DNA from: Alphaproteobacteria bacterium
GTDB taxonomy: Bacteria; Pseudomonadota; Alphaproteobacteria; DSM-16000; Inquilinaceae
DNA: 64,000 nt
Assembly: GCA_028277405.1 (NCBI GenBank)
Contig: JANQGH010000078.1
Span: forward strand, 31,557-95,556
Reading direction: 5' to 3'
Made by a program: the position numbers and the translations under genes. The notes beneath the pieces are model-generated. The model was not told the origin of the DNA, did not search any database, and worked only from the letters and a program-made list of their open reading frames with translations. The number at the start of each line of letters is the position of its first letter. Within the stretch, counting starts at the first letter, position 1. Shown here piece after piece: positions 23,698-38,837 of the stretch.

Positions 23698-23698
23698 C

Positions 23699-24990: not shown

Positions 24991-25043
24991 TGGATGTTCC
25001 GACCTGCCCCCTTTGAAGATGAGGAGCGACGCCGAAGAAGCTG

Positions 25044-26080: not shown

Positions 26081-26155
26081 CCGCGAGGTTGCATGAGCAC
26101 TTTAAGGGTATCCTGCAAGTCGATGATTATGCGGGGTTTGAGAGGCTTGCCGAAA
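26081..26155 (+). mobile_element. Short IS66-family transposase fragment
   Basis: The translation ...PARLHEHFKGILQVDDYAGFERLA... resembles the conserved IS66 transposase motif (..F.G.LQ.D.YAGY..L). It is only about 25 codons long with no flanking transposase sequence. Confidence 0.45.
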
Positions 26156-26163
26156 GCGACGCG

Positions 26164-26343
26164 GCCAGCCTGATAGGTCGTGAAGGCGAGACTGACCTGC
26201 TGTTCCGCTAGCCAGGCGGGGAAGTGTCGTGACGCGGTGACCTCGAACGTGGCATCGGACGTCGCCTCGGGAAGGCTCTCAGCGGTTTCGCCAGACGCGC
26301 TTGGCTGCTGGCCTAATGCATCGGCGTCTGGGTCGACAGCCAT
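26164..26343 (-). pseudogene. Truncated N-terminal fragment of a TIGR03032-like conserved hypothetical gene
   Basis: The ATG at 26343 has a GGAGGTG Shine-Dalgarno sequence, 30 nt after the giant gene's stop. Residues ...TFEVTASRHFPAWLAEQQVSLAFTTYQAG match my recollection of the TIGR03032 N-terminal motif. Similarity stops at about 26164, where the antisense of the IS66 fragment begins. Confidence 0.5.
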
Positions 26344-26372
26344 GCCACCTCCAGTTTCAGGAGCACCTTAGC

Positions 26373-29300
26373 TTAGACAAGCAGGAAATCGTCATCGTGG
26401 AGTTCCGCCAGGTTCACGCCGAGCAGCGTGACACTGTCGTCGGCATCGAGGGCGATCACCACATCATCGCCAACCTGGCTCGCGGCCGTCAACACGTCGG
26501 CCCCATCGGCAAACCCGAACGCCGCGATGTCCAGGACATCGTCCGAACCGGCGCCGGCCTGGAAGTCTACAACCGTATCGTTGCCACTGCCGTCTGCGAA
26601 GATGAACAGGTCGTCGCCGACTGCACCGGTCATCCGATCGTCGCCCGCATCGCCGGTGATCGTGTCGTCGCCTTGGGCCGCGACGATAATGTCGGCATTG
26701 GCCGTGCCCACGAGGATGTCCGCGTTCGCCGTGCCCACGACGTCGACGGCACCCGTCGCGTTGTTGCCGAAGATGACGTAGCTTTCTCCGGCATTGCCGA
26801 TGCTGCCTTTGTCCGCCAGAAATGCGCTGACGATCAGGTCATCGAACCCGTCGCCATTTACATCGCCCGCGCCACTCACCGATCGACCGACACGATCGCC
26901 GATGTCAATGCCGTCGAGGCGGAAACCGTTGGTCCCGTCCAGTGTCGCAAGATCGATTGCCGGGTCGAACCCTCCCGCAGCGCCGAACACCACATAGCTT
27001 TCCCCGGCTGTCTCGTTACCATTGGGATCGCCGCGCACGGCGCCGATGATCACATCGTCGAAGCCGTCACCATTGAAATCGCCCGCGCCGCTGACGGACC
27101 AGCCCGCATCATCGACCGGATCAATGCCGTCGAGGCGGAAGCCGTTGGTCCCGTCCAGCGTCGACAGATCGATGTTGGCGGCAAATCCACCAGCGGCGCC
27201 GAAGACCACATAAGCTTCACCGCCTGGACTGGCCTTGTAAGCGCCGATGATGATGTCATCGAAGCCGTCACCGTTGACGTCGCCGGCATCGCTCACCGAC
27301 ACGCCTGAACGGTCGGAGGCATCGATGCCGTCCAGCCGGAAGCCGTTGGTGCCGTCGAGCGTCGACAGATCAAACGAAGCTGCGAAGCCGCCGGCGGCGC
27401 CGAACACCACGTAGCTCTCGCCCGCTTCGCCGTTGCCGCCGGGATCCGCCTGTCGTGCACCGATGATCAGATCGTCGAACCCGTCGCCATTGACGTCGCC
27501 GGCACTGCTGACCGAAACGCCCGAATAATCGTCGGCGTCGATACCGTCGAGCCGAAAGCCGTTACTGCCGTTGAGCGAGGCTAGATCGAGCGCCGGAGCA
27601 AAGCCGCCGGCGGCGCCGAACACCACATAGCTTTCGCCGGTGAAGCCGTTGCTGCCGGCTGCCCCGACGATCACGTCGTCGAACCCGTCTCCATTGATGT
27701 CGCCGGCACCGCTGACCGAATACCCAGAGGCGTCAACGCTATCGATACCGTCGAGCCGGAAGCCATTGGTACCGTCAAGCGACGCCAGATCAAGCGCAGG
27801 CGCAAAACCGCCTGCGGCGCCGAACACCACATAGCTCTCGCCGGCCAACGCGTCGCCGCCAGGGGCAGCGTAGACGGCGCCAATGATCAGATCATCAAAT
27901 CCGTCGCCGTTGACGTCCCCGGCATCGCTCACCGAGACGCCCGAGCGATCGGAAACATCGATGCCTTGCAGGCGAAAACCGTTGGTTCCGTCCAAGGTCG
28001 ACAGGTCAATCGCGTCGGGGAACCCGGCCGCGGCGCCGAATACCACGTAACTCTCGCCGGCTTCGTTGTTGCCGCCGGGGCTGGCGGCAAATGCGCCGAC
28101 GATGACGTCGTCGAACCCGTCACCGTTGATGTCACCCGCGCCGCTGACCGAAAAGCCCGAGCGATCATTGTTGTCAATGCCGTCGAGCCGGAAGCCGTTG
28201 CTGCCGGTCAGGTCGGCAAGCGATATGACGGCAGGGAAATCAATCGTCGCGGTAAGCTCGCTTTCGACAAGCACCGTCGCCTGGCCGAGGGAAAATGCCC
28301 TATAGGTGCCTGTCTCGCCCAGCGGGTCGATAACCGCCGCGCCCTCACCCCAGAGGCCCTCCAGCAGCACCGTGTCGGCGGCATCGCCCTTGATCAGGAT
28401 CGTGTTCGAGGTCGAGGACAGGCCAAGAACATCGAGCCTGTCGAGAACAATCGTGTTGGCCGTCGATCCGCCGAGGTCGATCTTCTCGACGTCGACGAGC
28501 CGGTTGTCGGAAAGAGATGGGGACGGACCAAGCGCATCGACATTGACCGTGTCGATACCCGACCCGAGATCGACCGCGAGGGCCCCATCCGGCCCGATCA
28601 CCGCGACATCGTCGCCGGCACCGCCGCGGAACGCGTCCAGGCCGCCACCGCCGATCATGAGATCATCTCCGAGGCCGCCGACGAAGCTTTCAGCAGCCAC
28701 CGTGCCGATCAGCGTGTCATTCGCGTCGCCGCCGAGGAATGCCACAGTGCCCGTGACGTCGCGGCCAAAGATCACGTAGCTTTCGCCGGCATCTACGGCA
28801 CTACCGGGATCGCCGCCAGGTGCGCCGATGATCAGGTCATCGAACCCGTCGCCATCGATGTCACCGGCGGAACTGACTGAGAAGCCCGCAGCGTCGACGA
28901 GGTCAATACCGTCAAGCCGGATCCCGTTGGTCCCGTCCAAGGCCGACAGATCAAGCGCGGCGCCAAACCCGCCCGCGGCGCCGAACACGACGTAGCTTTC
29001 ACCGGCACCTTCGACACCGCCTGGATCACCTCCGAAGGCGCCGATGATCAAATCATCGAACCCGTCGCCATTGAAGTCGCCGGCGCCGCTGACCGAATGA
29101 CCGGCGTTGTCGCCGTTCGCGATTCCGTCAATCCGGAAGCCATTGCTGCCGTCGAGCGTAGACAGATCGAGTGCCGGTGCAAAACCGCTGCCGGCACCGA
29201 ACACCACATAGCTTTCGCCGGCTGCATCATTTCCACCTGGATCACCTCCGGCGGCGCCGATGATCAGGTCGTCGAAACCATCGCCGTTAACATCGCCGGC

Positions 29301-32300
29301 ATTGCTGACGGAGTTGCCTGAGAGATCGCCTGCATTGATGCCGTCGAGCCGGAAGCCGTTGCTGCCGTCCAAAGTCGACAAATCCAGGAAACTGCCGAAG
29401 CCGCCCGCGGCCCCAAACACCACGTAGCTCTTGCCTGCGTTGGCGTCGCCACCCAGGTCAGCCTGCCGAGCCCCGATAATCAGGTCGTCGAACCCGTCGC
29501 CGTTGACGTCGCCGGCGTCGCTCACGGAAACGCCGGAGTAGTCGCCAGGGTCGACACCGCCTATGCGGAACCCAACAGTGCCGTTCAAACTGCCGAGGCT
29601 GAAGTCAGAAGGAAACGCGTTGGGGCCGCCGAATATCACGTAGCTTTCGCCGGCCTCGGCGTTGCCGGCCGGGTCGGCGCGTGCAGCGCCGATGATAACG
29701 TCATCAAAGCCGTCACCGTTGAAGTCGCCAACACCGCTCACGGAGTATCCCGACACATCGTTGTCGTCAATGCCGTCGAACCGGACCCCATTGGTCCCGT
29801 CCAGCGTCGACAGGTCGAGCACGGGTGCAAAGCCGCCCGCGGCACCGAACACAACATAGGTCTCGCCCGCCCTGTCGCTGCCGCCGGGGTCGCCATATAC
29901 GGCGCCGATGATCAGGTCGCCGAACCCGTCGCCGTTCACATCACCCGCGGAGCTCACGGAAACGCCCGAACGGTCGGACACATCGATGCCGTCCAGCCGA
30001 AAGCCGTTGGTACCATCCAGCGTCGACAGATCGACGGCAGCCGGGAACCCGCCCGCCGCGCCGAACACCACATAGCTCTCGCCGGCCTCGCTATTGCTGT
30101 TGGGATCGGCGAGGACCGCACCGATGATGATATCGTCAAACCCGTCGCCATTGACGTCCCCGGCGCTGCTCACGGACCGGCCTGAGATGTCGGAACCGTC
30201 AATACCATCGAGCCGGAAGCCGTTATTTCCGTCGAGGTCGGCAAGCGATATGACGGTTGGGAAAGCGACGGTCGCAGCCACCTCGCTCTCGACCAGCACG
30301 GTTGCTTGGCCGAGCGAGAATGCGGTGTATGTACCCGTCTCTCCAAGCGGGTCGACAATGTCCGCGCCCTGCGTCCAAAGACCGTCAAGCACGACCGCGT
30401 CACTGGCATCGCCCTTGATCAGAACCGTGTTGGAGGTCGAGGACAGGCCAAGGACGTCAAGCTTGCCGAGAGTCAGCGTATTGGCCGTGGAGCCGCCCAG
30501 GTCGACCTTCTCGACGTCGACGAACAGGGTGCCGGAGAAGGAGGGTGCCGGACCGAGCGCATCGACATTCACCGTGTCGATGCCCGACCCGAGATCGACC
30601 GCAATGGCTCCGTCGGCCCCGATGACCGCAATGTCGTCGCCGGCCCCGCCGCGAAATGCATCAAGGCCACCGCCGCCGACCATGAGGTCATTGCCAAGGC
30701 CGCCGACGAAGCTTTCGGCCGCCACCGTGCCGGTCAGCGTGTCGTCTGCGTCGCCGCCGAGGAACGCCACCGCGCCATTCACGTCGCCGCCAAGGATCAC
30801 GTAGCTTTCGCCGGCGCCTGGACCAGCTTGCAGGGTACCGATGATCAGGTCATCGAAGCCGTCGCCATTGATGTCGCCGGCTCCGTTGACCGAAATGCCC
30901 GATGCTTCGAAGGCATCGACGCCCTCGAGCCTGAAACCGTTGGTCCCGTCCAGTGTCGAAAGATCGAGCACCGGTGCGAAACCACCCAAGGTGCCGAATA
31001 CGACATAGCTTTCACCGGCAAACTCACTGCCGCCCGGATTGCTGCGGGCAGCGCCAATGATCAGGTCATCGACGCCGTCGCCGTTGAAGTCGCCGGCATC
31101 GCTTACCGAGATACCGGCACCATCGCCAGCATCGATACCGTCGAGCCGGAAGCCGTTACTGCCGTCCAACGCCTCAAGATCGAGCGTCGCGGAGAATCCG
31201 GTGCCTCCGAAAACGACATAGGTTTCACCGGCCTCTGCCTTGCCGCCCGGGTCGGCATTTGCGGCGCCGACGATCAGATCGTCGATCCCGTCGCCGTTCA
31301 CGTCGCCCGCGCCACTCACCGAGGCCCCCAAGGCGTCGCCGCCATCAAGAGCATCGATCCGGAAGCCGTTGTCGCCATTAAGGGTCGACAAATCCAAAGC
31401 ACCGCCGAAGCCACCCGCGGCACCAAACACCACGTAGCTGGCGCCGTCCCCTCCGTTGGCAGCGATTGCGCCGACAATCAGATCGTCGAACCCGTCGCCG
31501 TTGATGTCGCCGGCGTTGCTGATCGAAGCGCCTAGGGCGTCGCCGGCGTCAATGCCGTCAATACGGAAGCCATTGCTCCCGTTCAGTGCGCCGAGGTCCA
31601 GAGCGGCGGCAAAGCCTTCCGCGGCACCGAACACCACATAGCTTTCGCCGGCATCCTGGTTGCCACCCGGGTCGCCGCGAAACGCGCTGATGATAACGTC
31701 GTCAAGTCCATCGCCGTTGACGTCTCCGGCGCCGCTGACATTGATGCCTGCGAAGTCGCCGTCGTCGATGCCGTCGAGCCGGAAGCCGTTGCTGCCGTCG
31801 AGCGTGGACAGGTCGAACGCGGGCGCGAAGCCGCCGGCGGCGCCGAACACGACATAGCTCTCGCCGGATGCTCCATTGCCGCCCGCTTCACCGTAAGCCG
31901 CGCCAATGATGACGTCGCCAAATCCATCGCCGTTGACGTCGCCAGCACCACTGACCGCAATGCCCGATAAATTGCCGGGACCGATGCCGTCGAGCCGGAA
32001 ACCGTTGCTGCCGTCAAGGCTCGACGGATCGAAAACGGCAGGGAATCCATCGGCGGTGCCGAACACGATGTAGCTTTCGCCGGCATCCTCGTTGCCGTCC
32101 GGATCGCCTCGAGCTGCGCTGACGATGATGTCGTCGAACCCGTCGCCGTTGAAGTCCCCAGCACTGCTAACGGCCTGACCAAAGACGTCGGTATCGTCAA
32201 TGCCGTCGAGCCGGAAACCGTTGGCGCCAGTCAGGTCGGCAAGCGATATGACGGACGGGAAGCCGACGGTGACGGTAAGCTCGCCCTCAACAAGCACCGT

Positions 32301-35300
32301 GGCCTGGCCGAGGGAGAATGCCTGGTAGGTTCCCGTTTCTCCCATCGGATTGATGACGTCGGCGCCCTGGCCCCAAAAGCCCTTCAGCAAGATCGAGTCG
32401 GCGGCATCGCCCTTGATCAGAACCGTGTTCGACGTGGAGGACAGGTTGAGCAGGTCGAGCTTGCTGAGAGCCAGCGTGTTGGCCGTCGATCCGCTGAGGT
32501 CGATCTTCTCCACGTCGACGAACAGGGCACCGGAAACGAAAGGCGACGGCCCGAGCGCATCGATGTTGACCGTGTCGATGCCCGAACCGAGATCAACCAC
32601 GAGGGCCCCGTCCGGCCCGATCACGGCAATGTCGTCACCGGCCCCACCGCGGAACACATCGAGCCCACCGCCGCCGATCATGAGATCATTGCCGCGGCCA
32701 CCGACAAAGCTCTCCGCCGCCGCCGTGCCGGTCAGCGTGTCGTTCGCGTCGTTGCCGAGATACGTGACCGCGCCGGTCACGTCGCCGCCGAAGATCACAT
32801 AGCTTTCACCGGCGGCGGCATTTGCGAGTGGAGCACCGATGATCAAATCATCGAACCCGTCGCCATTGACATCGCCCGCCGCATTGACCGACGGGCCCGA
32901 GTAATCGGCCGGATCGATTCCGTCGATGCGGAAACCATTGGTCCCGTCCAGCGCCGACAGGTCGAGCGCCGCCGAAAAACCGCCAGCAGCGCCAAACACC
33001 ACATAGGTTTCGCCAGCATCGGCGTTGCCGTTCGGATCGCCGCCGAAGGCGCCGATGATCAGATCGTCGAAACCGTCGCCATTGAAGTCGCCGGCACCGC
33101 TGACCGCAAAACCCGATGTGTCATCAGCATCGATGCCGTCGAGCCGGAAGCCATTGGTTCCGTCCAGCGCCGATAGATCAAAGGTAGGGGCGAAACCGCC
33201 TGCAGCCCCAAAAACGACATAGCTCTCGCCGGCGCCTGCCTCGCCGCCGGGGTCCGCCTCCCGGGCCCCGACAATGAGATCATCGAAACCATCGCCATTG
33301 ACGTCGCCCGCGCTGCTAACGGACACACCTGCATTGTCGTCGGCGTCGACGCCGTCCAGCCGGAAGCCGTTGCTGCCATCCAAGGTCGACAAATCGAAAG
33401 AGCTGCCGAAGGCGTCCGCGCCGCCGAACAAAACATATGCCCCGCCGGCTGCGTTGTTACCGTCAGGATCGATCCCACTGGCGCCAATAACGAGGTCAGC
33501 AAAACCGTCGCCGTTGACGTCCCCCGCCCCGCTGACCGAATAGCCGAAGCTGTCGCCGGCATCGAGACCGGCGATCCGGAACCCATCGTTGCCGTTCAGC
33601 CCCCCTAGATCGATGACGGCAGGGAATCCACCCGCAGCGCCGAACACCACATAGCTTTCGCCGGCAATGTTAAAACCGTCGGGATCAGCACGGCGCGCAC
33701 CGACGATGATGTCGTCAAAGCCATCGCCATTCATGTCGCCAGCGCTGCTGACCGAGAAGCCCGAGATGTCGTCGGTATCGACGCCGTCGAGGCGGAAACC
33801 GTTGCTGCCATCCAGTGTCGCCAGATCGAACGCGGGAGCAAAGCCGCCTGCGGCGCCAAACACCACGTAGCTTTCCCCAGCTCCGTCCTCACCATTCGGA
33901 TCGGCCTCTACAGCGCCAATGATCAGGTCGCTGAAACCGTCACCATTGACGTCGCCCGCTGTGCTCACTCGCCGCCCCGAGAAATCGCCAGCGTCGATAC
34001 CATCGAGCCGGAAGCCGTTCGTTCCATCCAGCGTGGCCAGATCGAGTGTAGCCGAGAATCCGCCGGCGGCGCCGAACACCACATAGCTTTCGCCGGCATA
34101 GGCCTCGCCGCCCGGACTGCCGCGATAGGCGCCGATGAAAATGTCGTCAAAGCCATCGCCGTTGACATCCCCGGCGGTGCTGACAGATCCGCCCGCCACG
34201 TCGCCGCCATCGATGCCGTCTATCCGAAAGCCGTTGGTACCGTCGAGATCGGCGAGGCTGAAGCTGCCCGTGATGGTGACGGTGACGGTTTGGATGTCGG
34301 TTTCCGCGCCGTCGGAGACTTGCAGCGTGTAATCGAGCACCAGCGTTTGCCCGAAACCCAGATAGTCGAACGCCTCAGCCCCGGAATCGAAGTCCCAGGC
34401 GATCGTTCCGGTCGTGGCGGTGCCGTCGATCACGGGGTTGGGCCCCAGATTCAGCATGGCGAGCAGCATGGCGTCGTCCGGCCGCCCGGCACTGGGCGCC
34501 GTTCCGCCTGCTGTCACTGAAAGAACGACCGCATCGACGCTGTCATTAAGGTCGGGGTCGGCGACCGTTAGCGTCCCGCTGGCGGTCAGCCCGGCATCGG
34601 TCTCGTCCAGCGCCACGGACGCGCTGTCGCCCGCCTCAATGGTGATCTCCGGCGCATCGTTGGCGCCGTCAAACTGGAAGTCGTCCTCGTGAAGGTCGGC
34701 GAGCTGGACGTTAAGCAGCGTGACGCTGTCGTCGGCGTCGAGCGCGATGACGACATCGCTGCCAAGCTCCGTCGCCGCCGCCAGCACACCGGCCAGATCC
34801 ACGAAGCCGAAGGCGCCGATTTCCAGTACGTCGTCGGTCCCGACGCCGGCCTGGAAATTCTCGATCGTGTCGTTGCCGCTGCCGTCGACGTAGAGGAACA
34901 GGTCGTTGCCGGCCCCACCATCGAGCGTGTCGTTGTCCGCCCCGCCATCGATGACATCGTCTGCGCTGCCGCTCAGGATGGAGTCATTGCCAGCGCCGCC
35001 ATTGACGACCTGCGTGATGCTGGAGGCGCTGGCGTCGAACACATCGTCGCCATCTCCGAGATTGGTGGTGACCGTGTTCTGGCTAACGCCCGCGGTTTCC
35101 AGGTTGGCGCCGATCGTGACACTGTCGGCGCCATCCCCTGTTGCGATCTCGATATCCTCGATACCGGTGACGGAGGAGGCAACGCCGTCGACACGGCTCG
35201 CAAAGTCGCCGTCATTGTCGACATTGTCGATGACGATGACATTACCCGAACCATCGCCATTGATCACCAGGGTGTCGTCGCCCAATCCGCCATCGATTAC

Positions 35301-38300
35301 GTCAGCGCCGTCGCCGACGGTATAGACGATCGTATCGGCGCCCCCGCCCGCATCGATCACGTCGTTGCCGCCAAGCCCCTCGATGAGATCGGTTCCGTCG
35401 CCCCCGACCAGAGTGTCTCTGTTGGCCGTGCCGGACGATCCACCATCGACATCGCCGACCTGGGACGCAGCCGCGCTGATGGCGCCGTTAAGAGCGGAGC
35501 CGGTGAACTGTTGCTCGGCATTTGAGGCGTCGTCGTTCTCGCCGGCGTCGGCAAGGGCGTCCGCCGCGTCGCCCTGAGCGACGATGGCGACCTTGGCAAT
35601 CTCCGTCAGCAGAGCGTTGTCCGGACTGCTCGTCTCCAGCTCCGAAATCTTCTCATTAGAGGCCGCGATGACGGTCGATGCGTCCTCCGCGGTGTTGGCC
35701 ACCGCCGCCGCGCCGATGCCGGCGTCGACCGCCGCATCGGTGATGAGTGTCTCGACGGTCTGCGGATCGTCCAGCGGCAGGGGGCCGCCTGCGCCGGCCA
35801 GATCGGCCGCCAGGCTGTCGAAAGCGACGTCAATGGCGGTGTCCTCATCGACGGCCCCTTGGCCTGCCCCTTCAACGAGGGCGGCAACCTGAACGACCGT
35901 GTTTTGGACCTGAACCTGCGTGGCAAGGATTTGCGCACCGACCGGATCACCCGCGGCGGCGGCCTCGACGGGATCGAATGTCGACAGGTCGACACCCGAC
36001 GGCAGGTCAAGCGATTGTTCTAGAATGGCTTGCGCCGCCGACGCATCGAGCGCCGCGCCGCTATCGATCAACGCGGCCATCAAGGTCGTGAGGGGCGTCA
36101 AAACCGTCGACCCTTCCGGGGCCCGCAACTGGCCCTTGAAGGCAAGGCCGGTCGATACGTCGACGCCGCCGAACAGGACAAGTGGCCCAGCCCCACCCAC
36201 CAGGCTGAAATCGCCGTCGGCATTGGTTGTGGTGAAGGCCTCGCCGCCGTCGAGAACGCCATTCATGTTGGCATCGGCAAAGACCGTCGCACCTGCGATG
36301 TAACCATCGACCGCCGACCCGATAAGCGCGTCCTCGACGACAACATTCAGCTCATCGGACACGAACTGGCCGCTTGTGTCGGTCGCCGTGACGACGACGG
36401 TGTAGGTGCCGTTGTCTCCGTCCAGCGGCGCTCCGGACAGCCGACCGGTCACACTGTCAAATTGCATCCAGGTTGGCAGCGGATCGCCATTGAGCAGCGT
36501 GGCGGAGAATGTCAGCGTGTCCGACGCGTCTGCATCGGCGAAGGCCGGGCCGGTATCGAGTTCGAAGCCGCCACTTTCCTCGGCAACCGACGGGTCCGGC
36601 AAGGAGGCAATCAGGATCGGCGCATCGTTTTCTCCGGTCACCTCGACCGTCAGGGTCGAAGACGACGGCGCGCCACTGTCGTCGGACATCGTGTAGTCGA
36701 TGGTCACCATGGCGGTATCGCCGACATCGAGCTCGTCGAAGTCCGTGCCCGGATCGAACCGGACCTGGTTGCCATCGATCGTCACGGACCCTGTGGTCAG
36801 GGCCCCTGCCGCGATGCCGGCCACCGACACGCCGTCGATGCTGTCCAGCGAAAAGGTCGCCGGGCCGTCGCCCGCGTCGACATCCGTATCGTTGGCCAGG
36901 ACATCAACGGTCAGGATGGTGTTCTCCGCCGTGCTGTCCGCATCCGATGCCGCGACCGGCGCCTCGTTCACGTTCGTCACCGTGACGGCGATGGTCTGTG
37001 TCGTTGGCGTGACGCCGTCCGTGACCTGAACCTCGACCTCATAGACGTTGTCGGCATCGGCATCGCCAGGCGTTTCGAAGTCAGGCGCATTGACGAAGGA
37101 GAGGTTGCCATCATTGTCGATGGTGAACAGGGCGTCATCGGCCCCGTTGCCGGTGATCGAGAATTCCAGCGGCCCGCCGACGGTGTCGGCATCGGTCGCG
37201 ATCACCTGCAGGACGGTCTGGGTGTTCTCGCCCACCGTAGCGCTGTCGGACGAGCTGATGATGGGCGCGTTGTCGTTCTCGTCCCCCACTGTGACGGTGA
37301 TGGTTTGGGTATCGATATTGAAGCCGTCGCTTGCCTCGACCGTGACTTCGTAAAGGTTGTCGGCGTCGGCATCGGCGGGGGTTTCGAAATCCGGCGCCGT
37401 GTTGAAGGTCAGACCCCCCGTGTCGGCATCGATGCTGAACAGGGCGGCATCCGCCCCGCCGACAATCCTGAAGACCGGCGTCTCGCCATCGGCGTCCTCG
37501 GCCATCACGGTTGTCACCGAGCCTGTGTTCTCGGCCACGGCGATCGACGCCGTTTCGCCGCCGCCATCACTGGTGATGACCGGCGCGTTCGGGCTCGGGA
37601 CCTGGGTGAATGTCACCGCATCGATACGGGCGAACTCCCAGGCATCGCGGGTGCCCTTCAGGGTGATCTCGTCACCCTGTTTCAGCGACAGACCGTCGAT
37701 GACATGGGTTGAGATCGTCGAGCCGTCGCCTCCATTGCCGTTGTTGTTTTGCGTCAGGTCAATCGTCTCGATCAGAACGCCGTTCAGATAGATCTCGATG
37801 GCGCCTTCGCCGTCATTCTCGTCGATGTAGGCAAGCCTGAAATCGTAAAAGCCGTCTTCAGCGCCGAAGACAAAGGAGGCTTCGCCCTCGTCCCGTCTCA
37901 ACCGGATCACCTGGCCGCCGGACGCGGCGTCGACATCGTCTTCCCGATAGTTCCGAAGCGCCATGTCTTCGGCTTCGATCGTAAATGTACCGTCCGCATC
38001 CGGCTGCCAGACCAGCCCGGCGGAGAGTTCGCGATAGCGCACCCAGTTGCCGACGACATTGCCGGTGTCGACGACCGTCAACTGCGCCCCCGGCGGCGGA
38101 ACATCACCGAGGAAGGCGAAGAAATCATCGCGATCGGTTTCGCTGACGCCGCTAACCTCAACATCGATTAGGTAGAACCGATTGCCGTCTTGGTCTTCGA
38201 GAACGAGATATCGCTCCGCGTAGATCCGGACGCCCTCGTGCACGGTCTCGCCGTCCAGCACGATATCCGCCCGTTGGCCGGTTCTATCGTTGCCAATCTC

Positions 38301-38480
38301 GTTTCGGTAGGCATCGCCGGAAAGGCCACCGTCATTGTCCTGAACAGTGACAGCCGCACTGGCACTAACCGGCATCACAAATGCGTCGCCAACATTCAGC
38401 CAGTCATCGTCTGCGGCTAGGAGTTCAGAACCGATAAAGGCGGTGAACTCGTAAGTACGAAGATGCGAGTTGTTCGGCAT
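26373..38480 (-). CDS. Giant (4035 aa) mosaic RTX / cadherin / FG-GAP repeat surface protein, probable type I secretion substrate (adhesin-like)
   Basis: A single uninterrupted 12,108-nt ORF with no N-terminal signal peptide. It has GGxGxD nonapeptide blocks, an acidic composition and a C-terminus ...LHDDDFLLV. The domain layout is detailed in the sub-features below. Confidence 0.9.
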   Translation of the reverse strand: MPNNSHLRTYEFTAFIGSELLAADDDWLNVGDAFVMPVSASAAVTVQDNDGGLSGDAYRNEIGNDRTGQRADIVLDGETVHEGVRIYAERYLVLEDQDGNRFYLIDVEVSGVSETDRDDFFAFLGDVPPPGAQLTVVDTGNVVGNWVRYRELSAGLVWQPDADGTFTIEAEDMALRNYREDDVDAASGGQVIRLRRDEGEASFVFGAEDGFYDFRLAYIDENDGEGAIEIYLNGVLIETIDLTQNNNGNGGDGSTISTHVIDGLSLKQGDEITLKGTRDAWEFARIDAVTFTQVPSPNAPVITSDGGGETASIAVAENTGSVTTVMAEDADGETPVFRIVGGADAALFSIDADTGGLTFNTAPDFETPADADADNLYEVTVEASDGFNIDTQTITVTVGDENDNAPIISSSDSATVGENTQTVLQVIATDADTVGGPLEFSITGNGADDALFTIDNDGNLSFVNAPDFETPGDADADNVYEVEVQVTDGVTPTTQTIAVTVTNVNEAPVAASDADSTAENTILTVDVLANDTDVDAGDGPATFSLDSIDGVSVAGIAAGALTTGSVTIDGNQVRFDPGTDFDELDVGDTAMVTIDYTMSDDSGAPSSSTLTVEVTGENDAPILIASLPDPSVAEESGGFELDTGPAFADADASDTLTFSATLLNGDPLPTWMQFDSVTGRLSGAPLDGDNGTYTVVVTATDTSGQFVSDELNVVVEDALIGSAVDGYIAGATVFADANMNGVLDGGEAFTTTNADGDFSLVGGAGPLVLFGGVDVSTGLAFKGQLRAPEGSTVLTPLTTLMAALIDSGAALDASAAQAILEQSLDLPSGVDLSTFDPVEAAAAGDPVGAQILATQVQVQNTVVQVAALVEGAGQGAVDEDTAIDVAFDSLAADLAGAGGPLPLDDPQTVETLITDAAVDAGIGAAAVANTAEDASTVIAASNEKISELETSSPDNALLTEIAKVAIVAQGDAADALADAGENDDASNAEQQFTGSALNGAISAAASQVGDVDGGSSGTANRDTLVGGDGTDLIEGLGGNDVIDAGGGADTIVYTVGDGADVIDGGLGDDTLVINGDGSGNVIVIDNVDNDGDFASRVDGVASSVTGIEDIEIATGDGADSVTIGANLETAGVSQNTVTTNLGDGDDVFDASASSITQVVNGGAGNDSILSGSADDVIDGGADNDTLDGGAGNDLFLYVDGSGNDTIENFQAGVGTDDVLEIGAFGFVDLAGVLAAATELGSDVVIALDADDSVTLLNVQLADLHEDDFQFDGANDAPEITIEAGDSASVALDETDAGLTASGTLTVADPDLNDSVDAVVLSVTAGGTAPSAGRPDDAMLLAMLNLGPNPVIDGTATTGTIAWDFDSGAEAFDYLGFGQTLVLDYTLQVSDGAETDIQTVTVTITGSFSLADLDGTNGFRIDGIDGGDVAGGSVSTAGDVNGDGFDDIFIGAYRGSPGGEAYAGESYVVFGAAGGFSATLDLATLDGTNGFRLDGIDAGDFSGRRVSTAGDVNGDGFSDLIIGAVEADPNGEDGAGESYVVFGAAGGFAPAFDLATLDGSNGFRLDGVDTDDISGFSVSSAGDMNGDGFDDIIVGARRADPDGFNIAGESYVVFGAAGGFPAVIDLGGLNGNDGFRIAGLDAGDSFGYSVSGAGDVNGDGFADLVIGASGIDPDGNNAAGGAYVLFGGADAFGSSFDLSTLDGSNGFRLDGVDADDNAGVSVSSAGDVNGDGFDDLIVGAREADPGGEAGAGESYVVFGAAGGFAPTFDLSALDGTNGFRLDGIDADDTSGFAVSGAGDFNGDGFDDLIIGAFGGDPNGNADAGETYVVFGAAGGFSAALDLSALDGTNGFRIDGIDPADYSGPSVNAAGDVNGDGFDDLIIGAPLANAAAGESYVIFGGDVTGAVTYLGNDANDTLTGTAAAESFVGGRGNDLMIGGGGLDVFRGGAGDDIAVIGPDGALVVDLGSGIDTVNIDALGPSPFVSGALFVDVEKIDLSGSTANTLALSKLDLLNLSSTSNTVLIKGDAADSILLKGFWGQGADVINPMGETGTYQAFSLGQATVLVEGELTVTVGFPSVISLADLTGANGFRLDGIDDTDVFGQAVSSAGDFNGDGFDDIIVSAARGDPDGNEDAGESYIVFGTADGFPAVFDPSSLDGSNGFRLDGIGPGNLSGIAVSGAGDVNGDGFGDVIIGAAYGEAGGNGASGESYVVFGAAGGFAPAFDLSTLDGSNGFRLDGIDDGDFAGINVSGAGDVNGDGLDDVIISAFRGDPGGNQDAGESYVVFGAAEGFAAALDLGALNGSNGFRIDGIDAGDALGASISNAGDINGDGFDDLIVGAIAANGGDGASYVVFGAAGGFGGALDLSTLNGDNGFRIDALDGGDALGASVSGAGDVNGDGIDDLIVGAANADPGGKAEAGETYVVFGGTGFSATLDLEALDGSNGFRLDGIDAGDGAGISVSDAGDFNGDGVDDLIIGAARSNPGGSEFAGESYVVFGTLGGFAPVLDLSTLDGTNGFRLEGVDAFEASGISVNGAGDINGDGFDDLIIGTLQAGPGAGESYVILGGDVNGAVAFLGGDADDTLTGTVAAESFVGGLGNDLMVGGGGLDAFRGGAGDDIAVIGADGAIAVDLGSGIDTVNVDALGPAPSFSGTLFVDVEKVDLGGSTANTLTLGKLDVLGLSSTSNTVLIKGDASDAVVLDGLWTQGADIVDPLGETGTYTAFSLGQATVLVESEVAATVAFPTVISLADLDGNNGFRLDGIDGSDISGRSVSSAGDVNGDGFDDIIIGAVLADPNSNSEAGESYVVFGAAGGFPAAVDLSTLDGTNGFRLDGIDVSDRSGVSVSSAGDVNGDGFGDLIIGAVYGDPGGSDRAGETYVVFGAAGGFAPVLDLSTLDGTNGVRFDGIDDNDVSGYSVSGVGDFNGDGFDDVIIGAARADPAGNAEAGESYVIFGGPNAFPSDFSLGSLNGTVGFRIGGVDPGDYSGVSVSDAGDVNGDGFDDLIIGARQADLGGDANAGKSYVVFGAAGGFGSFLDLSTLDGSNGFRLDGINAGDLSGNSVSNAGDVNGDGFDDLIIGAAGGDPGGNDAAGESYVVFGAGSGFAPALDLSTLDGSNGFRIDGIANGDNAGHSVSGAGDFNGDGFDDLIIGAFGGDPGGVEGAGESYVVFGAAGGFGAALDLSALDGTNGIRLDGIDLVDAAGFSVSSAGDIDGDGFDDLIIGAPGGDPGSAVDAGESYVIFGRDVTGTVAFLGGDANDTLIGTVAAESFVGGLGDDLMIGGGGLDAFRGGAGDDVAVIGPDGALAVDLGSGIDTVNVDALGPSPSLSDNRLVDVEKIDLGGSTANTIVLDRLDVLGLSSTSNTILIKGDAADTVLLEGLWGEGAAVIDPLGETGTYRAFSLGQATVLVESELTATIDFPAVISLADLTGSNGFRLDGIDNNDRSGFSVSGAGDINGDGFDDVIVGAFAASPGGNNEAGESYVVFGAAAGFPDAIDLSTLDGTNGFRLQGIDVSDRSGVSVSDAGDVNGDGFDDLIIGAVYAAPGGDALAGESYVVFGAAGGFAPALDLASLDGTNGFRLDGIDSVDASGYSVSGAGDINGDGFDDVIVGAAGSNGFTGESYVVFGAAGGFAPALDLASLNGSNGFRLDGIDADDYSGVSVSSAGDVNGDGFDDLIIGARQADPGGNGEAGESYVVFGAAGGFAASFDLSTLDGTNGFRLDGIDASDRSGVSVSDAGDVNGDGFDDIIIGAYKASPGGEAYVVFGAAGGFAANIDLSTLDGTNGFRLDGIDPVDDAGWSVSGAGDFNGDGFDDVIIGAVRGDPNGNETAGESYVVFGAAGGFDPAIDLATLDGTNGFRLDGIDIGDRVGRSVSGAGDVNGDGFDDLIVSAFLADKGSIGNAGESYVIFGNNATGAVDVVGTANADILVGTANADIIVAAQGDDTITGDAGDDRMTGAVGDDLFIFADGSGNDTVVDFQAGAGSDDVLDIAAFGFADGADVLTAASQVGDDVVIALDADDSVTLLGVNLAELHDDDFLLV
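26376..26618 (-). other. C-terminal module of the giant protein (putative T1SS secretion/folding domain)
   Basis: GDDLFIFADGSGNDTVVDFQAGAGSDDVLDIAAFGFADGADVLTAASQVGDDVVIALDADDSVTLLGVNLAELHDDDFLLV. Position and composition fit an RTX-protein C-terminal region. Confidence 0.6.
26619..26768 (-). repeat. Terminal RTX nonapeptide block
   Basis: GTANADILVGTANADIIVAAQGDDTITGDAGDDRMTGAV contains GGxGxD-like calcium-binding repeats. Confidence 0.75.
26769..28226 (-). repeat. FG-GAP array 4: seven blades (predicted beta-propeller)
   Basis: Seven units of about 62-70 aa, each with ...NGFRLDGID..D..G.SVS.AGD(V/I/F)NGDGFDD(L/V/I)I(I/V)(G/S)A...GESYVVFGAAGGF...DLS.LDG. Confidence 0.85.
28227..28766 (-). 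repeat. Inter-propeller linker module 3 (RTX nonapeptides plus conserved beta-rich domain)
   Basis: GRDVTGTVAFLGGDANDTLIGTVAAESFVGGLGDDLMIGGGGLDAFRGGAGDD...VDVEKIDLGGSTANTIVLDRLDVLGLSSTSNTILIKGDAADTVLLEGLW...YRAFSLGQATVLVESELTATIDFPAV. Confidence 0.8.
28767..30251 (-). repeat. FG-GAP array 3: seven blades
   Basis: Seven GD(V/F/I)(N/D)GDGF(D/G)D loops were counted, with the same blade consensus as array 4. Confidence 0.85.
30252..30791 (-). repeat. Inter-propeller linker module 2
   Basis: GGDVNGAVAFLGGDADDTLTGTVAAESFVGGLGNDLMVGGGGLDAFRGGAGDD...VDVEKVDLGGSTANTLTLGKLDVLGLSSTSNTVLIKGDASDAVVLDGLW...YTAFSLGQATVLVESEVAATVAFPTV. Confidence 0.8.
30792..32249 (-). repeat. FG-GAP array 2: seven blades
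   Basis: Seven GD(F/V/I)NGDG(F/L/I/V)(D/G)D loops were counted. Confidence 0.85.
32250..32790 (-). repeat. Inter-propeller linker module 1
   Basis: GGDVTGAVTYLGNDANDTLTGTAAAESFVGGRGNDLMIGGGGLDVFRGGAGDD...VDVEKIDLSGSTANTLALSKLDLLNLSSTSNTVLIKGDAADSILLKGFW...YQAFSLGQATVLVEGELTVTVGFPSV. Confidence 0.8.
32791..34268 (-). repeat. FG-GAP array 1: seven blades
   Basis: Seven GD(V/M/F)NGDGF(D/S/A)D loops were counted. The array starts at ...ITGSFSLADLDGTNGFRIDG. Confidence 0.85.
34269..34670 (-). other. VCBS/Ig-like beta domain between the internal C-terminal-like module and propeller 1
   Basis: DGANDAPEITIEAGDSASVALDETDAGLTASGTLTVADPDLNDSVD...IAWDFDSGAEAFDYLGFGQTLVLDYTLQVSDGAETDIQTVTVTITG has a pattern typical of VCBS-type repeats in large RTX adhesins. 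Confidence 0.55.
34671..34910 (-). repeat. Internal copy of the C-terminal module (aa 1191-1270)
   Basis: GNDLFLYVDGSGNDTIENFQAGVGTDDVLEIGAFGFVDLAGVLAAATELGSDVVIALDADDSVTLLNVQLADLHEDDFQF aligns without gaps to the true C-terminus. My hand alignment gives 51 identities in 73 positions. Confidence 0.85.
34911..35435 (-). repeat. Internal RTX nonapeptide block (aa ~1016-1190)
   Basis: GTANRDTLVGGDGTDLIEGLGGNDVIDAGGGADTIVYTVGDGADVIDGGLGDDTLVINGDGSGN...NGGAGNDSILSGSADDVIDGGADNDTLDGGA. Confidence 0.8.
35436..36332 (-). other. Ala/Asp/Val-rich non-repetitive stalk region (aa ~717-1015)
   Basis: It starts DALIGSAVDGYIAGATVFADANMNGVLDGGEAFTTTNADGDFSL.... A long Ala-rich, probably helical stretch follows (...AAQAILEQSLDLPSG...AALVEGAGQGAVDEDTAIDVAFDSLAADLAGAG...). 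No family was recognised. Confidence 0.4.
36333..36629 (-). other. Dystroglycan-type cadherin-like (Cadg / He_PIG-like) Ig domain
   Basis: ...FADADASDTLTFSATLLNGDPLPTWMQFDSVTGRLSGAPLDGDNGTYTVVVTATD... matches the characteristic LP.W..FD..TG.LSGTP...D.G.Y...V.A.D pattern. Confidence 0.7.
36630..36965 (-). other. VCBS/bacterial cadherin-like domain
   Basis: NEAPVAASDADSTAENTILTVDVLANDTDVDAGDGPATFSLDSIDG...VRFDPGTDFDELDVGDTAMVTIDYTMSDDSGAPSSSTLTVEVTGEND. Confidence 0.6.
36966..37586 (-). repeat. Two tandem cadherin-like repeats
   Basis: Each unit of about 105 aa follows ...AENT..V..V.A.DAD....F.I.G.GADDALF.ID...G.L.F...PDFE.P.DADADN.YEV.V...DG....TQTI.VTV.(D/N)(E/V)N(D/E)(N)AP. Confidence 0.75.
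37605..37994 (-). other. CBM6/CBM35-like (galactose-binding-like) putative lectin domain
   Basis: FTIEAEDMALRNYREDDVDAASGGQVIRL...EASFVFGAEDGFYDFRLAYIDENDGEGAIEIYLNGVLIETIDL...LKQGDEITLKGTRDAWEFARIDAVTF matches the IEAED...ASGG...G.Y.....Y......I.....G........G.........L..G...I.........D.I.F pattern of CBM6-type modules. Confidence 0.5.
37995..38480 (-). other. N-terminal ~160 aa of the giant protein, no recognisable family
   Basis: MPNNSHLRTYEFTAFIGSELLAADDDWLNVGDAFVMPVSASAAVTVQDNDGGLSGDAYRNEIGNDRTGQRADIVLDGETVHEGVRIYAERYLVLEDQDGNRFYLIDVEVSG... has no signal peptide or TM segment. Confidence 0.4.
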
Positions 38481-38837
38481 GAGTCAGCACCCAGATTCTT
38501 GACGATCCGTCACAGTGCCGTTCAGCGCTGAAGGTCCGGGCAAGCCGGCTTCTGCAACTATTTGCTAGTTTGCGTGTTATTTTTCACTGTGCGAGTCTTC
38601 TACCACATATTGTAACCCAAGCTGAGAAACTCATGAAGTAGAAATCGGCGCTCGTGGAAAACTGGTTGTGTTTGGCGGCGGTTTTATGCCGAGAAATCTC
38701 TCACCGTGGTTTGAGCTCGGCGTCGCACAGTGATCCTCCGTTTGCTGCCCTGACCGCGCTTCGCTGAAATCGCCCGACTTCAGATGCCATGAGGAGAGAC
38801 CCTGCAGACCGTTGATCGGGGGTCTTGAAGACGAGGC
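38481..38837 (-). promoter_or_regulatory. 357-bp comparatively AT-rich upstream region of the giant gene (promoter and long leader expected here)
   Basis: This is the only sizeable non-coding stretch upstream. A TACAAT hexamer lies on the minus strand at 38609-38614, and an AT-rich block at about 38560-38590. No convincing -35 element or strong SD (only GGGTG) was seen. Confidence 0.35.

What the first reader, a model, noticed from the sequence alone, without database searches (positions are those of the whole stretch)
26373..38480. 12.1-kb single ORF encoding a 4035-aa mosaic RTX / cadherin / lectin / FG-GAP protein
One uninterrupted ORF takes up 19% of the window. Read N to C it combines at least nine module types: an unassigned N-domain, a CBM6/35-like domain, two cadherin repeats, a VCBS-like domain, a dystroglycan-type cadherin-like domain, an Ala-rich stalk, RTX blocks, four FG-GAP arrays with three conserved linkers, and a C-terminal module. 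It has no signal peptide, carries GGxGxD blocks and ends in an acidic ...DDDFLLV tail, which fits type I secretion substrates. Adhesin domains combined with four integrin-like propellers is not a layout I can assign to a characterised adhesin (LapA, SiiE, RtxA, BapA types). The ligand and role are open.
Basis: partly seen in the sequence, partly recalled or inferred. Interest (0 to 1): 0.75.

Follow-up and report, generated by a model that had tools for sequence, protein, structure and literature searches.

The report
Giant calcium-dependent secreted adhesin-like protein
This is a real 12.1-kb gene for a 399-kDa calcium-binding protein, probably a type I-secreted surface or matrix adhesin, built by fusing units that are separate secreted proteins in other bacteria; it belongs to a large, unstudied family rather than being a one-off.

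Summary
The ORF is real: 26373-38480 on the minus strand, 4035 codons, no internal stop, no cysteine.

Pfam confirms 28 FG-GAP blades (4 x 7), two cadherin repeats, Cadherin_4/Big_9, He_PIG and RTX repeats. The CBM6/35-like call holds only at the level of predicted structure. The "stalk" is a conserved domain with no Pfam family.

- The three "linkers" are RTX repeats plus a cap domain. That combination forms the C-terminus of stand-alone ~665-aa propeller proteins elsewhere.
- Residues 1158-1272 are a relic of a complete C-terminal secretion domain. The protein is therefore an in-frame chain of whole type I secretion substrates.
- The gene lies in a 14.3-kb segment that a 94-98% identical relative lacks at both junctions.

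The layout is not unique. Giant proteins with 3-8 such propellers, linkers and cadherins are common, and one 4178-aa metagenome protein is collinear with residues 1275-4034. None that I found has been characterised.

No secretion genes lie in the window. The central 6.5 kb rests on this assembly alone.

Verdict: an ordinary new member of the giant RTX adhesin class, with a clear fusion history. Ligand unknown; polysaccharide binding is the best guess.

The parts
26373..38480 (-). Whole gene: 4035 codons plus stop. 399 kDa, no Cys, 17% Gly, 13.6% Asp.
38007..38480 (-). aa 1-158, N1: first beta-sandwich domain of a conserved ~300-aa N-terminal 'head'. No Pfam or NCBIfam family.
   Evidence: AF2 model with pLDDT 85. 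Head found at 49-63% identity at the N-terminus of 10 shorter alphaproteobacterial proteins or fragments. No family hit.
37590..38006 (-). aa 159-297, N2: second beta-sandwich, CBM6/35/36-like fold. It starts with an IEAED motif and ends with IDAVTF.
   Evidence: Foldseek matches single CBM36/CBM35/CBM6 modules with TM about 0.75, rmsd about 3 A, E about 1e-6. The profile gives a weak hit to the CBM35 of 3zm8. Pfam is not significant.
36990..37583 (-). aa 300-497: two cadherin repeats.
   Evidence: Pfam PF00028, E 4e-16, 2 stretches. 55-59% identical to cadherin pairs in many RTX proteins.
36645..36989 (-). aa 498-612: bacterial Ig/cadherin-like domain (Cadherin_4 / Big_9).
36333..36623 (-). 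aa 620-716: He_PIG (dystroglycan-type cadherin-like) domain.
   Evidence: Pfam PF05345, E 2e-13
It opens with a DGYIAGATVFADANxNG motif.
   Evidence: No Pfam or PDB sequence hit. Homologous at 34-43% in P0091, P0285 and P0359.
34665..35450 (-). aa 1011-1272: RTX block plus a relic of a complete C-terminal secretion/cap domain. It ends ...LHEDDFQF and is followed directly by DGANDAPE.
   Evidence: 59% identical to the true C-terminus. Matches PueAB 374-613 of 616. The stand-alone homologue L022 ends ...EDDFNFV*.
34257..34664 (-). aa 1273-1408: Ig/VCBS-like domain that opens the second half.
   Evidence: Homologous to the same position in P0285 and to L003 and L023. No significant Pfam hit.
32772..34256 (-). 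aa 1409-1903: propeller 1, seven FG-GAP blades.
   Evidence: AF2 model with pLDDT 78. Foldseek matches integrin alpha propellers at E 1e-17, TM about 0.7.
32241..32771 (-). aa 1904-2080: linker 1, three GGxGxD nonapeptides plus a ~130-aa cap domain ending ...GFPSVISL.
30777..32240 (-). aa 2081-2568: propeller 2, seven blades.
30243..30776 (-). aa 2569-2746: linker 2 (RTX plus cap domain).
28758..30242 (-). aa 2747-3241: propeller 3, seven blades.
28218..28757 (-). aa 3242-3421: linker 3 (RTX plus cap domain).
26763..28217 (-). aa 3422-3906: propeller 4, seven blades.
26376..26762 (-). aa 3907-4035: terminal RTX block plus cap and putative type I secretion signal, ending ...HDDDFLLV.
   Evidence: NCBIfam PueAB 499-615 of 616, serralysin 322-448 of 462, SMc04171 440-573 of 574. 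PDB sequence hits to CyaA RTX-V, HlyA, family I.3 lipase 479-614 of 617, protease C and serralysin.
24560..38826 (.). 14.27-kb segment that a close relative lacks at both junctions. It holds the giant gene, its ~350-nt upstream region, a TIGR03032 gene fragment and an unassigned ORF.
   Evidence: Window 11055-24559 and 38827-49910 are 97.7% and 94.1% identical to a 6.12-Mb JGI contig. There the two blocks lie about 33 kb apart and in the other order.

Best explanation
The gene encodes a very large, acidic, calcium-dependent extracellular protein. It most likely leaves the cell through a type I secretion system encoded elsewhere in the genome. It most likely acts as a multivalent adhesin or matrix cross-linker.

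Anatomy (shown). The protein is an in-frame chain of units that are complete proteins in other bacteria.
- Part A (aa 1-1272): a two-domain beta-sandwich head whose second domain has a CBM6/35/36-like fold, then two cadherin repeats, an Ig-like domain, a He_PIG domain, a conserved unassigned ~290-aa domain, an RTX block, and a relic C-terminal secretion/cap domain.
- Part B (aa 1273-4035): an Ig-like domain followed by four units. Each unit is a seven-bladed integrin-alpha-type propeller with a DxNGDGxxD loop in every blade, then RTX nonapeptides and a ~130-aa cap. The last unit instead carries a lipase/serralysin/CyaA-type RTX cap and C-terminal signal.

Mechanism (inferred from what is known of RTX proteins):
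1. The chain stays unfolded in the low-calcium cytoplasm.
2. It is threaded out C-terminus first.
3. It folds outside in steps. Each RTX/cap module binds calcium and nucleates folding of the propeller ahead of it, which also prevents back-sliding.

Function (inferred by analogy). The four propellers and the lectin-like head bind polysaccharide or surface ligands, so that one molecule bridges the cell or its exopolysaccharide to another surface.
For: - ORF integrity and purifying selection.
- Domain families.
- 28 of 28 blades carry the GDxNGDG calcium-loop motif.
- The predicted propeller matches integrin alpha head propellers.
- The C-terminal 135-175 aa align to the ends of proven type I substrates.
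- No Cys, no transmembrane segment, no Sec-like N-terminus, 684 acidic against 101 basic residues.
- The linker region matches the serralysin/protease C C-terminal domain.
- Stand-alone unit proteins of ~665 aa cover a whole unit at 54-56% identity. They start M..INLSSLDGSNGFRLDG and end ..TDFPNIV*.
- In locus L024 such genes sit in tandem as 670, 675, 1335 (two fused units) and 658 aa, and the fusion joints line up with ours.
- A stand-alone head-plus-Ig-plus-RTX protein (L022, 1319 aa) ends EDDFNFV*. Ours reads EDDFQF and then continues.
- The head has a CBM-like fold.
- From the literature: the FG-GAP propeller of Vibrio cholerae Bap1/RbmC binds exopolysaccharide directly (PMC10102183). RTX blocks fold vectorially from a C-terminal cap (PMC9120197, PMC10511787, PMC6891781).
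Against: - No ABC exporter, membrane fusion protein or TolC gene lies anywhere in the 64-kb window. Secretion is therefore inferred only from the substrate side.
- No LapA-type N-terminal retention module or BapA prefix was detected. Whether the protein stays on the cell is unknown.
- No ligand has been tested for any member of this propeller family that I could find.
- The CBM-like call rests on a predicted structure from a 10-sequence alignment. No ligand-binding residues were identified.
- The central 6.5 kb has no second assembly.
Confidence: 0.68

Rival explanations
1. The ORF as given is partly an assembly product. Either the number of propeller units is wrong, or two different giant genes were joined through their repeats. 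Such an in-register join would stay in frame.
For: - The independently assembled contigs stop inside the repeats, at 27501 and 34067. Nothing else covers 27502-34066.
- The gene sits exactly at a synteny breakpoint relative to a 94-98% identical genome. A false join would produce that picture.
- The exact 4035-aa product is not on record, although neighbouring proteins from the same NCBI contig are.
Against: - The units are only 70-74% identical in DNA and the longest exact repeat is 37 nt. Any assembler with k above about 40, or with read pairs, resolves that. The contigs that broke may simply come from a small-k assembly; the k value is my recollection, not checked.
- dS between units is about 1 or more, so there are no near-identical copies to collapse.
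- Each propeller has exactly seven blades and each linker is complete.
- Both flanks adjoin gene ends that the relative lacks. A chimera would therefore need two separate giant genes and two insertions.
Confidence: 0.08
2. It is secreted but is not an adhesin. It would be a released structural or calcium-binding matrix or S-layer-like protein, or a carrier for the head domain, with no specific ligand for the propellers.
For: - No retention module was detected.
- The head family also occurs as small proteins. One is a 501-aa head-plus-RTX protein, P0246.
- RTX-like proteins of unknown role dominate several Roseobacter exoproteomes (PMC3933643, PMC2953401).
Against: - Cadherin, He_PIG, CBM-like and integrin-type propeller domains are binding modules wherever they have been studied.
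- Four propellers kept under purifying selection suggest multivalent binding rather than bulk.
- S-layer RTX proteins are, from my own knowledge, usually about 1000 aa and not built like this.
Confidence: 0.15
3. It is a polysaccharide-degrading enzyme. The propellers would be catalytic, as in propeller-fold polysaccharide lyases, and the head would be its carbohydrate-binding module.
For: - The head has a CBM-like fold.
- The window also carries GH116 and sulfatase genes and many sugar importers.
Against: - The best structural and sequence matches of the propeller are integrin alpha heads, at E 1e-17 and 3e-11. No lyase appears among the 50 structural hits listed.
- No glycoside hydrolase or lyase family was hit in Pfam or NCBIfam.
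- Every blade is a regular calcium-loop blade with no evident active-site insertion.
Confidence: 0.04
4. It is a pore-forming RTX cytotoxin of the HlyA/CyaA kind.
For: RTX repeats are present. There are weak NCBIfam hits to the RTX_toxin and EhxA models.
Against: - Those hits cover only the repeat region, at 48-55 bits against cut-offs of 1000-2000.
- There is no hydrophobic pore-forming domain.
- There is no acyltransferase gene nearby.
Confidence: 0.02

Closest known systems
Giant type I-secreted RTX adhesins (LapA, MpIBP, SiiE, FrhA, MhLap)
   Same: - Hundreds of kDa, no Sec signal, acidic and Cys-poor.
- Calcium-dependent Ig/cadherin-like domains.
- Ligand-binding modules toward the C-terminal side.
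- RTX block plus uncleaved C-terminal signal.
   Different: - No detectable N-terminal retention module.
- No long run of near-identical extender repeats.
- No LapG/LapD or secretion genes nearby.
- Four integrin-type propellers, each with its own RTX/cap, which no characterised member has.
- A lectin-like head at the N-terminus.
Bacterial integrin-type seven-bladed FG-GAP propeller proteins (Chouhan et al. 2011, PMC3192720)
   Same: - Seven regular FG-GAP blades, with a calcium loop in nearly every blade.
- More regular than human integrins.
- Tandem copies were already noted in that paper.
   Different: - That survey reported at most two tandem propellers; here there are four.
- It assumed a cytoplasmic role, whereas the RTX/cap modules and C-terminal signal argue for export.
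- No function was assigned there.
Vibrio cholerae Bap1 / RbmC biofilm adhesins (PMC10102183)
   Same: A calcium-binding FG-GAP-type propeller is combined with other lectin or binding modules. The propeller binds the cell's own exopolysaccharide and the other modules bind foreign surfaces ('double-sided tape'). This is the best functional model for the present protein.
   Different: - From my own knowledge, not checked here: Bap1 and RbmC have one eight-bladed propeller, a Sec signal and type II secretion.
- They carry beta-prism domains and no RTX.
- No Bap1 or RbmC chain appeared among the 61 PDB sequence matches at E <= 0.001.
Rhizobium Rap proteins (RapA2, RapD), cadherin-like lectins secreted by the PrsDE type I system (PMC9298526)
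   Same: Alphaproteobacterial, type I-secreted, calcium-binding cadherin-like domains. They bind the producer's acidic exopolysaccharide.
   Different: Small proteins of one or two domains, with no propellers and no CBM-like head.
C-terminal RTX/cap domains of serralysins, family I.3 lipases (PueA/B, PML) and CyaA RTX block V
   Same: The terminal 135-175 aa and the internal relic align with these to within a few residues of their ends. The tail is an acidic residue followed by hydrophobic residues.
   Different: Those proteins have one such domain at the true C-terminus. Here there is one terminal copy, one internal relic of the same type, and three internal caps of a second type.
Uncharacterised metagenomic giants P0285 (4178 aa) and P0250 (5256 aa), and stand-alone units such as P0172 (670 aa)
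   Same: - P0285 is collinear with aa 1275-4034 at 40% identity in one alignment and shares the unassigned 'stalk' domain.
- P0250 has five propellers, five linkers and cadherin pairs.
- P0172 equals one unit at 55% identity over 99% of its length.
   Different: - None of them has the N1+N2 head.
- Units are more alike within each protein than between proteins. The unit number was therefore reached independently, or the units are homogenised.

Membership tests
RTX / type I secretion substrates | Tandem GGxGxDxUx calcium-binding nonapeptides (Pfam HemolysinCabind) | tested here: met
   PF00353 at E 4e-12 for the whole protein. It is significant separately in the 1010-1275 block, linker 1 and the C-terminus. 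13 strict GGxGxD motifs fall in four clusters, and the C-terminal block has looser G[GSAD]xGxD copies.
RTX / type I secretion substrates | Uncleaved C-terminal secretion region homologous to that of proven substrates | tested here: met
   - NCBIfam alignments reach PueAB 615 of 616, SMc04171 573 of 574 and serralysin 448 of 462.
- PDB sequence hits to CyaA RTX-V, HlyA, lipase 479-614 of 617 and protease C.
- This is homology only. Secretion itself was not tested.
RTX / type I secretion substrates | No N-terminal Sec or Tat signal peptide | tested here: met
   The N-terminus MPNNSHLRTYEFTAFIGSELLAADDD has no basic n-region or hydrophobic core. The highest 19-residue hydropathy in the first 30 windows is 1.34. 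No dedicated signal-peptide predictor was available.
RTX / type I secretion substrates | Cognate ABC exporter, membrane fusion protein and TolC-like outer membrane protein in the genome | tested here: not met
   None in the 64-kb window. All ABC proteins there are importer ATPases that sit with solute-binding proteins and permeases. Only the window was available, so the rest of the genome cannot be tested.
LapA-like RTX adhesins | N-terminal retention module or BapA-prefix domain with a LapG-type cleavage site, plus LapG/LapD genes | tested here: not met
   No NCBIfam or Pfam hit in aa 1-300. The only AA[GV] in the first 350 aa is at residue 42, inside a predicted strand. No LapG or LapD gene lies in the window.
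LapA-like RTX adhesins | Long extension region of many near-identical Ig-like repeats | tested here: not met
   There are only about five Ig/cadherin-type domains, of four different families.
Integrin-alpha-type seven-bladed FG-GAP propeller | Seven FG-GAP repeats per domain, calcium loops of the DxDxDGxxD type, and a fold match to integrin alpha heads | tested here: met
   - 28 Pfam stretches; 4 x 7 motif copies at a period of 67-72 aa within each array.
- phmmer to integrin alpha-V at E 3e-11.
- AF2 model with pLDDT 78; Foldseek E 1e-17, TM about 0.7.
Cadherin (PF00028) and He_PIG (PF05345) | Profile score above the curated cut-off | tested here: met
   59.5 bits against a cut-off of 28.8, and 51.1 bits against 24.
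CBM6 / CBM35 / CBM36 carbohydrate-binding modules | Sequence membership (Pfam CBM_6 or relatives) | tested here: not met
   No CBM family at E <= 1. The only hit is a weak CatAgl_D1 match at E 0.031.
CBM6 / CBM35 / CBM36 carbohydrate-binding modules | Beta-jelly-roll fold superposable on solved modules | tested here: met
   Foldseek matches CBM36 (7ay3, 1w0n), CBM35 (2w1w, 3zm8) and CBM6 (8j3x). TM on the target is 0.73-0.76 for the stand-alone modules (7ay3, 1w0n, 2w1w), rmsd is 2.7-3.5 A and E is 1e-5 to 2e-6.
CBM6 / CBM35 / CBM36 carbohydrate-binding modules | Ligand-binding and calcium-site residues; actual sugar binding | not testable with these tools
   E169, E171, D220, E221 and D223 are invariant or nearly so in the head family. 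Their roles were not established.
Pore-forming RTX toxins | Hydrophobic pore-forming domain, acylation site and acyltransferase gene; full-length model score | tested here: not met
   The RTX_toxin model scores 48.5 bits against a cut-off of 1000 and covers the repeat region only. There is no hydrophobic domain and no acyltransferase gene nearby.

The most novel reading that the evidence does not exclude
The internal secretion/cap domains may not be dead relics. The protein would then be a secreted 'polyprotein' of five complete type I substrates. Each retained RTX/cap would act as an obligatory calcium-driven ratchet and folding nucleus for the ~500-residue propeller upstream of it. Alternatively, each would mark a site where the chain is cut after export to release separate propeller units. 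That would make interspersed caps a general solution for pushing very long chains through a type I duct.
Probability: 0.15. Interest if true: 0.55.

Novelty: new member of a known kind. Interest (0 to 1): 0.3.

Why it matters
The gene itself is an ordinary member of the giant RTX adhesin class, from a bacterium that is probably a marine or environmental alphaproteobacterium. Two things are still useful.

First, it and its relatives give an unusually clear series of how such giants are built. Single ~665-aa propeller-RTX-cap genes occur in tandem, then as a two-unit fusion, and here as four units fused behind a complete head-and-cadherin substrate. The former C-termini remain readable at every joint.

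Second, integrin-type propellers with their own RTX caps form a very large family (68,498 cluster representatives). I found no member with a known ligand. The 2011 survey of bacterial integrin-type propellers assumed they were cytoplasmic. The evidence here argues that many are exported, which makes them testable candidates for polysaccharide or surface binding in biofilms and particle attachment.

Tried and rejected
- The full-length protein search timed out.
- The search for homologous proteins appears to list only hits up to about 1.75 times the query length, so it could not show full-length relatives. The exhaustive representative search was used for that instead.
- An exact look-up of the 4035-aa product found nothing.
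- Pfam and NCBIfam on isolated segments gave nothing significant for N1, N2, the 'stalk' or the 1273-1408 domain. Pfam on homologues of the 'stalk' and of the linker gave nothing new. PDB sequence searches of the 'stalk' and of the head profile gave nothing significant.
- I tested whether P0285's four units are position-by-position orthologues of ours, which would have validated the copy number. They are not: identity within each protein exceeds identity between proteins.
- I looked for a pre-fusion state, meaning a head-family gene next to a propeller gene, in nine head-family loci. None was found.
- Promoter and terminator scans around the gene gave nothing above shuffles.
- The plasmid search gave only short matches at 70-76% identity to importer genes. 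There is therefore no evidence that the window is a known plasmid.
- The organism could not be named. Cluster mates are labelled only 'Pseudomonadota bacterium'. Head-domain relatives are Paracoccaceae, Silicimonas, Limibaculum and unclassified alphaproteobacterial MAGs.
Full report
OBSERVATION

The window has one ORF at 26373..38480 on the minus strand, running from ATG to TAG, 4035 codons, with no internal stop. At about 63% GC, an open run of this length has a chance probability near 1e-49 (my arithmetic from base composition). GC3 is 0.75, within the range of the neighbouring genes. The product is 399 kDa. It has no cysteine, 17% Gly and 13.6% Asp, no transmembrane-like segment and no Sec-like N-terminus. 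Homologues start M-x(7-10)-YEFTAF, which supports the start codon.

DOMAINS

Pfam, all above the curated cut-offs:
- FG-GAP in 28 stretches (E 1e-175).
- Cadherin x2 (E 4e-16).
- Cadherin_4/Big_9 at 495-612.
- He_PIG at 624-715 (E 2e-13).
- HemolysinCabind.

The motif GD[VFMI][ND]GDG occurs exactly 28 times, as four arrays of seven at a period of 67-72 aa.

A model of one unit (aa 1412-2083, pLDDT 78) has a seven-bladed propeller. Its best PDB matches are integrin alpha head propellers, at Foldseek E 1e-17 and TM about 0.7. The sequence search agrees, with integrin alpha-V at E 3e-11.

A model of aa 1-300 (pLDDT 85, from a 10-sequence alignment) shows two beta-sandwich domains.

The 'stalk' is a conserved domain. 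It recurs at 34-43% identity in P0091, P0285 and P0359. Its fold is unknown.

WHAT THE LINKERS AND THE INTERNAL RTX BLOCK ARE

The three 'linkers' each carry three GGxGxD nonapeptides and a ~130-aa domain. In the PDB sequence search this region aligns with the C-terminal domain of serralysin and protease C.

Many bacteria encode stand-alone proteins of about 665 aa that cover one whole unit at 54-56% identity and 97-99% coverage, for example P0172, P0190 and P0204. They begin M..INLSSLDGSNGFRLDG and end ..VGVNVTTDFPNIV*.

In locus L024 such genes sit in tandem as 670, 675, 1335 and 658 aa, and the 1335-aa product is two complete units. The joint in that two-unit protein and the three joints in ours line up with the stand-alone C-terminus followed by the stand-alone N-terminus. 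Ours read ...TV(G/A/D)FP(S/T/A)VISLADLxGxNGFRLDG.

Residues 1158-1268 are 59% identical to the protein's own last 111 residues. The block 1017-1268 aligns to PueAB positions 374-613 of 616. A stand-alone relative with the same head, Ig-like domains, RTX and C-terminus (L022, 1319 aa) ends ...EDDFNFV*. Ours reads ...EDDFQF and runs straight on into DGANDAPE.

The protein is therefore an in-frame chain of complete secreted proteins: one head/cadherin substrate (aa 1-1272) and four propeller units (aa 1273-4035).

The units are old paralogues under purifying selection, with dS about 1.0-1.4 and dN/dS 0.15-0.21.

SECRETION

The last 135-175 residues align almost to the end of proven type I substrates:
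- PueAB 499-615 of 616, SMc04171 440-573 of 574 and serralysin 322-448 of 462.
- CyaA RTX block V and its cap, HlyA, family I.3 lipase 479-614 of 617, and protease C.

The tail ...HDDDFLLV is an acidic residue followed by hydrophobic residues. From my own knowledge, that is the pattern of the protease/lipase group of substrates.

Against this, the window holds no ABC exporter, membrane fusion protein or TolC. Its ABC proteins are importer ATPases that sit with binding proteins and permeases, alongside TRAP transporters and catabolic enzymes. No LapA-type retention module or BapA prefix was detected. Export is therefore well supported from the substrate side only, and cell-surface retention is open.

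HOW COMMON THE LAYOUT IS

An exhaustive search with one unit found 68,498 cluster representatives at E <= 0.001 and 15,235 at E <= 1e-30. I read the 147 newly returned sequences among the top 150 hits. Giants of 3000-7400 aa with 3-8 propellers and matching linkers are frequent among them, and several also carry cadherin pairs (P0250, P0273, P0275, P0303, P0330).

P0285 (4178 aa, ENA metagenome, flanked by transposases) is collinear with our residues 1275-4034 in one 3056-column alignment at 40% identity. It also shares the 'stalk' domain. Its units are not position-by-position orthologues of ours. The number four was therefore reached independently, or the units are homogenised.

The N1+N2 head occurs at 49-63% identity at the N-terminus of ten shorter proteins or fragments, eight of them complete ORFs of 744-1973 aa. 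They come from Paracoccaceae, Silicimonas, Limibaculum and unclassified alphaproteobacterial MAGs and metagenomes. None of them has propellers. The particular combination seen here was not found elsewhere, but each half is a known, widespread layout.

Chouhan et al. (PMC3192720) described bacterial integrin-type propellers, noted up to two tandem copies, and assumed a cytoplasmic role. I found no characterised member.

GENOMIC SETTING AND ASSEMBLY

Contigs of sequencing run SRR20820739 are 100% identical to window 14527-27501 and 34067-46068. A contig of run SRR20820733 matches 14527-24498. Both ends of the gene (375 C-terminal and 1471 N-terminal codons) and their junctions with the flanks are thus seen twice.

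These contigs break inside the propeller repeats. The units are only 70-74% identical in DNA and the longest exact repeat is 37 nt, so an ordinary assembly should resolve them. Even so, 27502-34066 has no second witness.

A 6.12-Mb contig in JGI sample 3300001596 is 97.7% and 94.1% identical to window 11055-24559 and 38827-49910. Homology stops exactly at the stop codon of the esterase gene and resumes just before the end of the hydratase gene. In that genome the two blocks are about 33 kb apart and in the other order.

The 14.27 kb between them is therefore strain-specific at a rearrangement point. It holds the giant gene, a 108-aa fragment of a TIGR03032 gene 30 nt downstream of the giant gene, and an unassigned 253-aa ORF. 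This fits an accessory, mobile-by-recombination gene. It is also the one observation that keeps a chimeric join from being fully excluded. I rate that possibility at about 8%.

MECHANISM

Shown:
- The modular anatomy.
- The calcium-loop motif in all 28 blades.
- Five RTX regions.
- A C-terminus homologous to those of type I substrates.
- Purifying selection on the units.

Inferred from established work on RTX proteins (PMC6891781, PMC9120197, PMC10511787):
1. The chain stays unfolded at cytoplasmic calcium levels.
2. It exits C-terminus first.
3. It folds vectorially as each RTX/cap binds calcium. An interspersed cap behind every propeller would nucleate folding and prevent back-sliding of a 4000-residue chain.

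Inferred by analogy:
- The FG-GAP propeller of V. cholerae Bap1/RbmC binds the cell's exopolysaccharide directly, and other modules bind foreign surfaces (PMC10102183).
- Rhizobial cadherin-like Rap proteins, which are type I substrates, bind acidic exopolysaccharide (PMC9298526).

The most likely role is a multivalent, calcium-dependent bridge between the cell or its polysaccharide and another surface. The four propellers and the CBM-like head would be the binding ends. The ligand is unknown.

VERDICT

The claim of an unusual architecture is not supported. This is a new member of the giant type I-secreted RTX adhesin class, from a very large family that has not been characterised. Its main value is the clear record of how it was built by gene fusion.

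Noticed in passing
window 26017-26343 (-): A 108-aa ORF lies 30 nt downstream of the giant gene's stop. It matches only positions 2-32 of the 335-position TIGR03032 model (E 9e-7), and the rest is unrelated sequence. It looks like a truncated remnant of a TIGR03032-family gene inside the strain-specific segment.
   Followed up: partly
window 25044-25805 (-): An ORF of 253 aa (called as 119 aa in the other assembly) has no Pfam or NCBIfam hit. It lies in the strain-specific segment between the esterase gene and the giant gene.
   Followed up: partly
window 24560-38826; loci L016, L018: The flanks of the giant gene are 94-98% identical to a 6.12-Mb contig of JGI sample 3300001596. There the two flanking blocks are about 33 kb apart and in the opposite order. 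The gene therefore sits at a rearrangement breakpoint.
   Followed up: yes
L024 10001-21464 (also L025, L026): A tandem array of stand-alone propeller-RTX-cap genes of 670, 675, 1335 (two fused units) and 658 aa. A Y1 transposase gene sits between the last two. A MacB-type ABC pump with its adaptor lies about 7 kb upstream. No classical type I secretion genes are within 10 kb.
   Followed up: partly
L009 8177-21196, L010 4511-17317 (Halomonas), L023 2-14113: Other giant ORFs of 4269-4704 aa carry two to four copies of a domain 26-36% identical to the CBM-like N2 domain. L023 also has RTX blocks. The N2-type module is therefore reused as an internal repeat in unrelated giants.
   Followed up: no
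L011 (locus of P0285): The closest full-architecture relative (4178 aa) is flanked on both sides by DDE transposase genes or fragments. This is consistent with such genes moving as accessory cargo.
   Followed up: no
L001, L002, L004-L006 (head-family proteins of 744-918 aa): These head-bearing relatives have almost no GGxGxD motifs (0-1 each). They share a different conserved C-terminal region ending ...ESLDL, ...SFDF or ...SFDFA. The same head is therefore attached to at least two kinds of C-terminal export region.
   Followed up: no
window 1-24559 and 38838-64000: The rest of the window is dense in uptake and catabolic genes. These include three TRAP systems, several peptide- or sugar-type ABC importers, a GH116 glycosidase, a sulfatase, an MlrC-type peptidase, an IlvD/Edd-family dehydratase, and IclR, GntR, LysR, AraC and ROK regulators. 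No phage, plasmid or secretion genes were seen.
   Followed up: partly
L007 9107-13478: The head-family gene in this MAG contig is split over two overlapping frames. Its tail translates to an Arg-rich nonsense sequence. This looks like a frameshift error in that assembly rather than biology.
   Followed up: no
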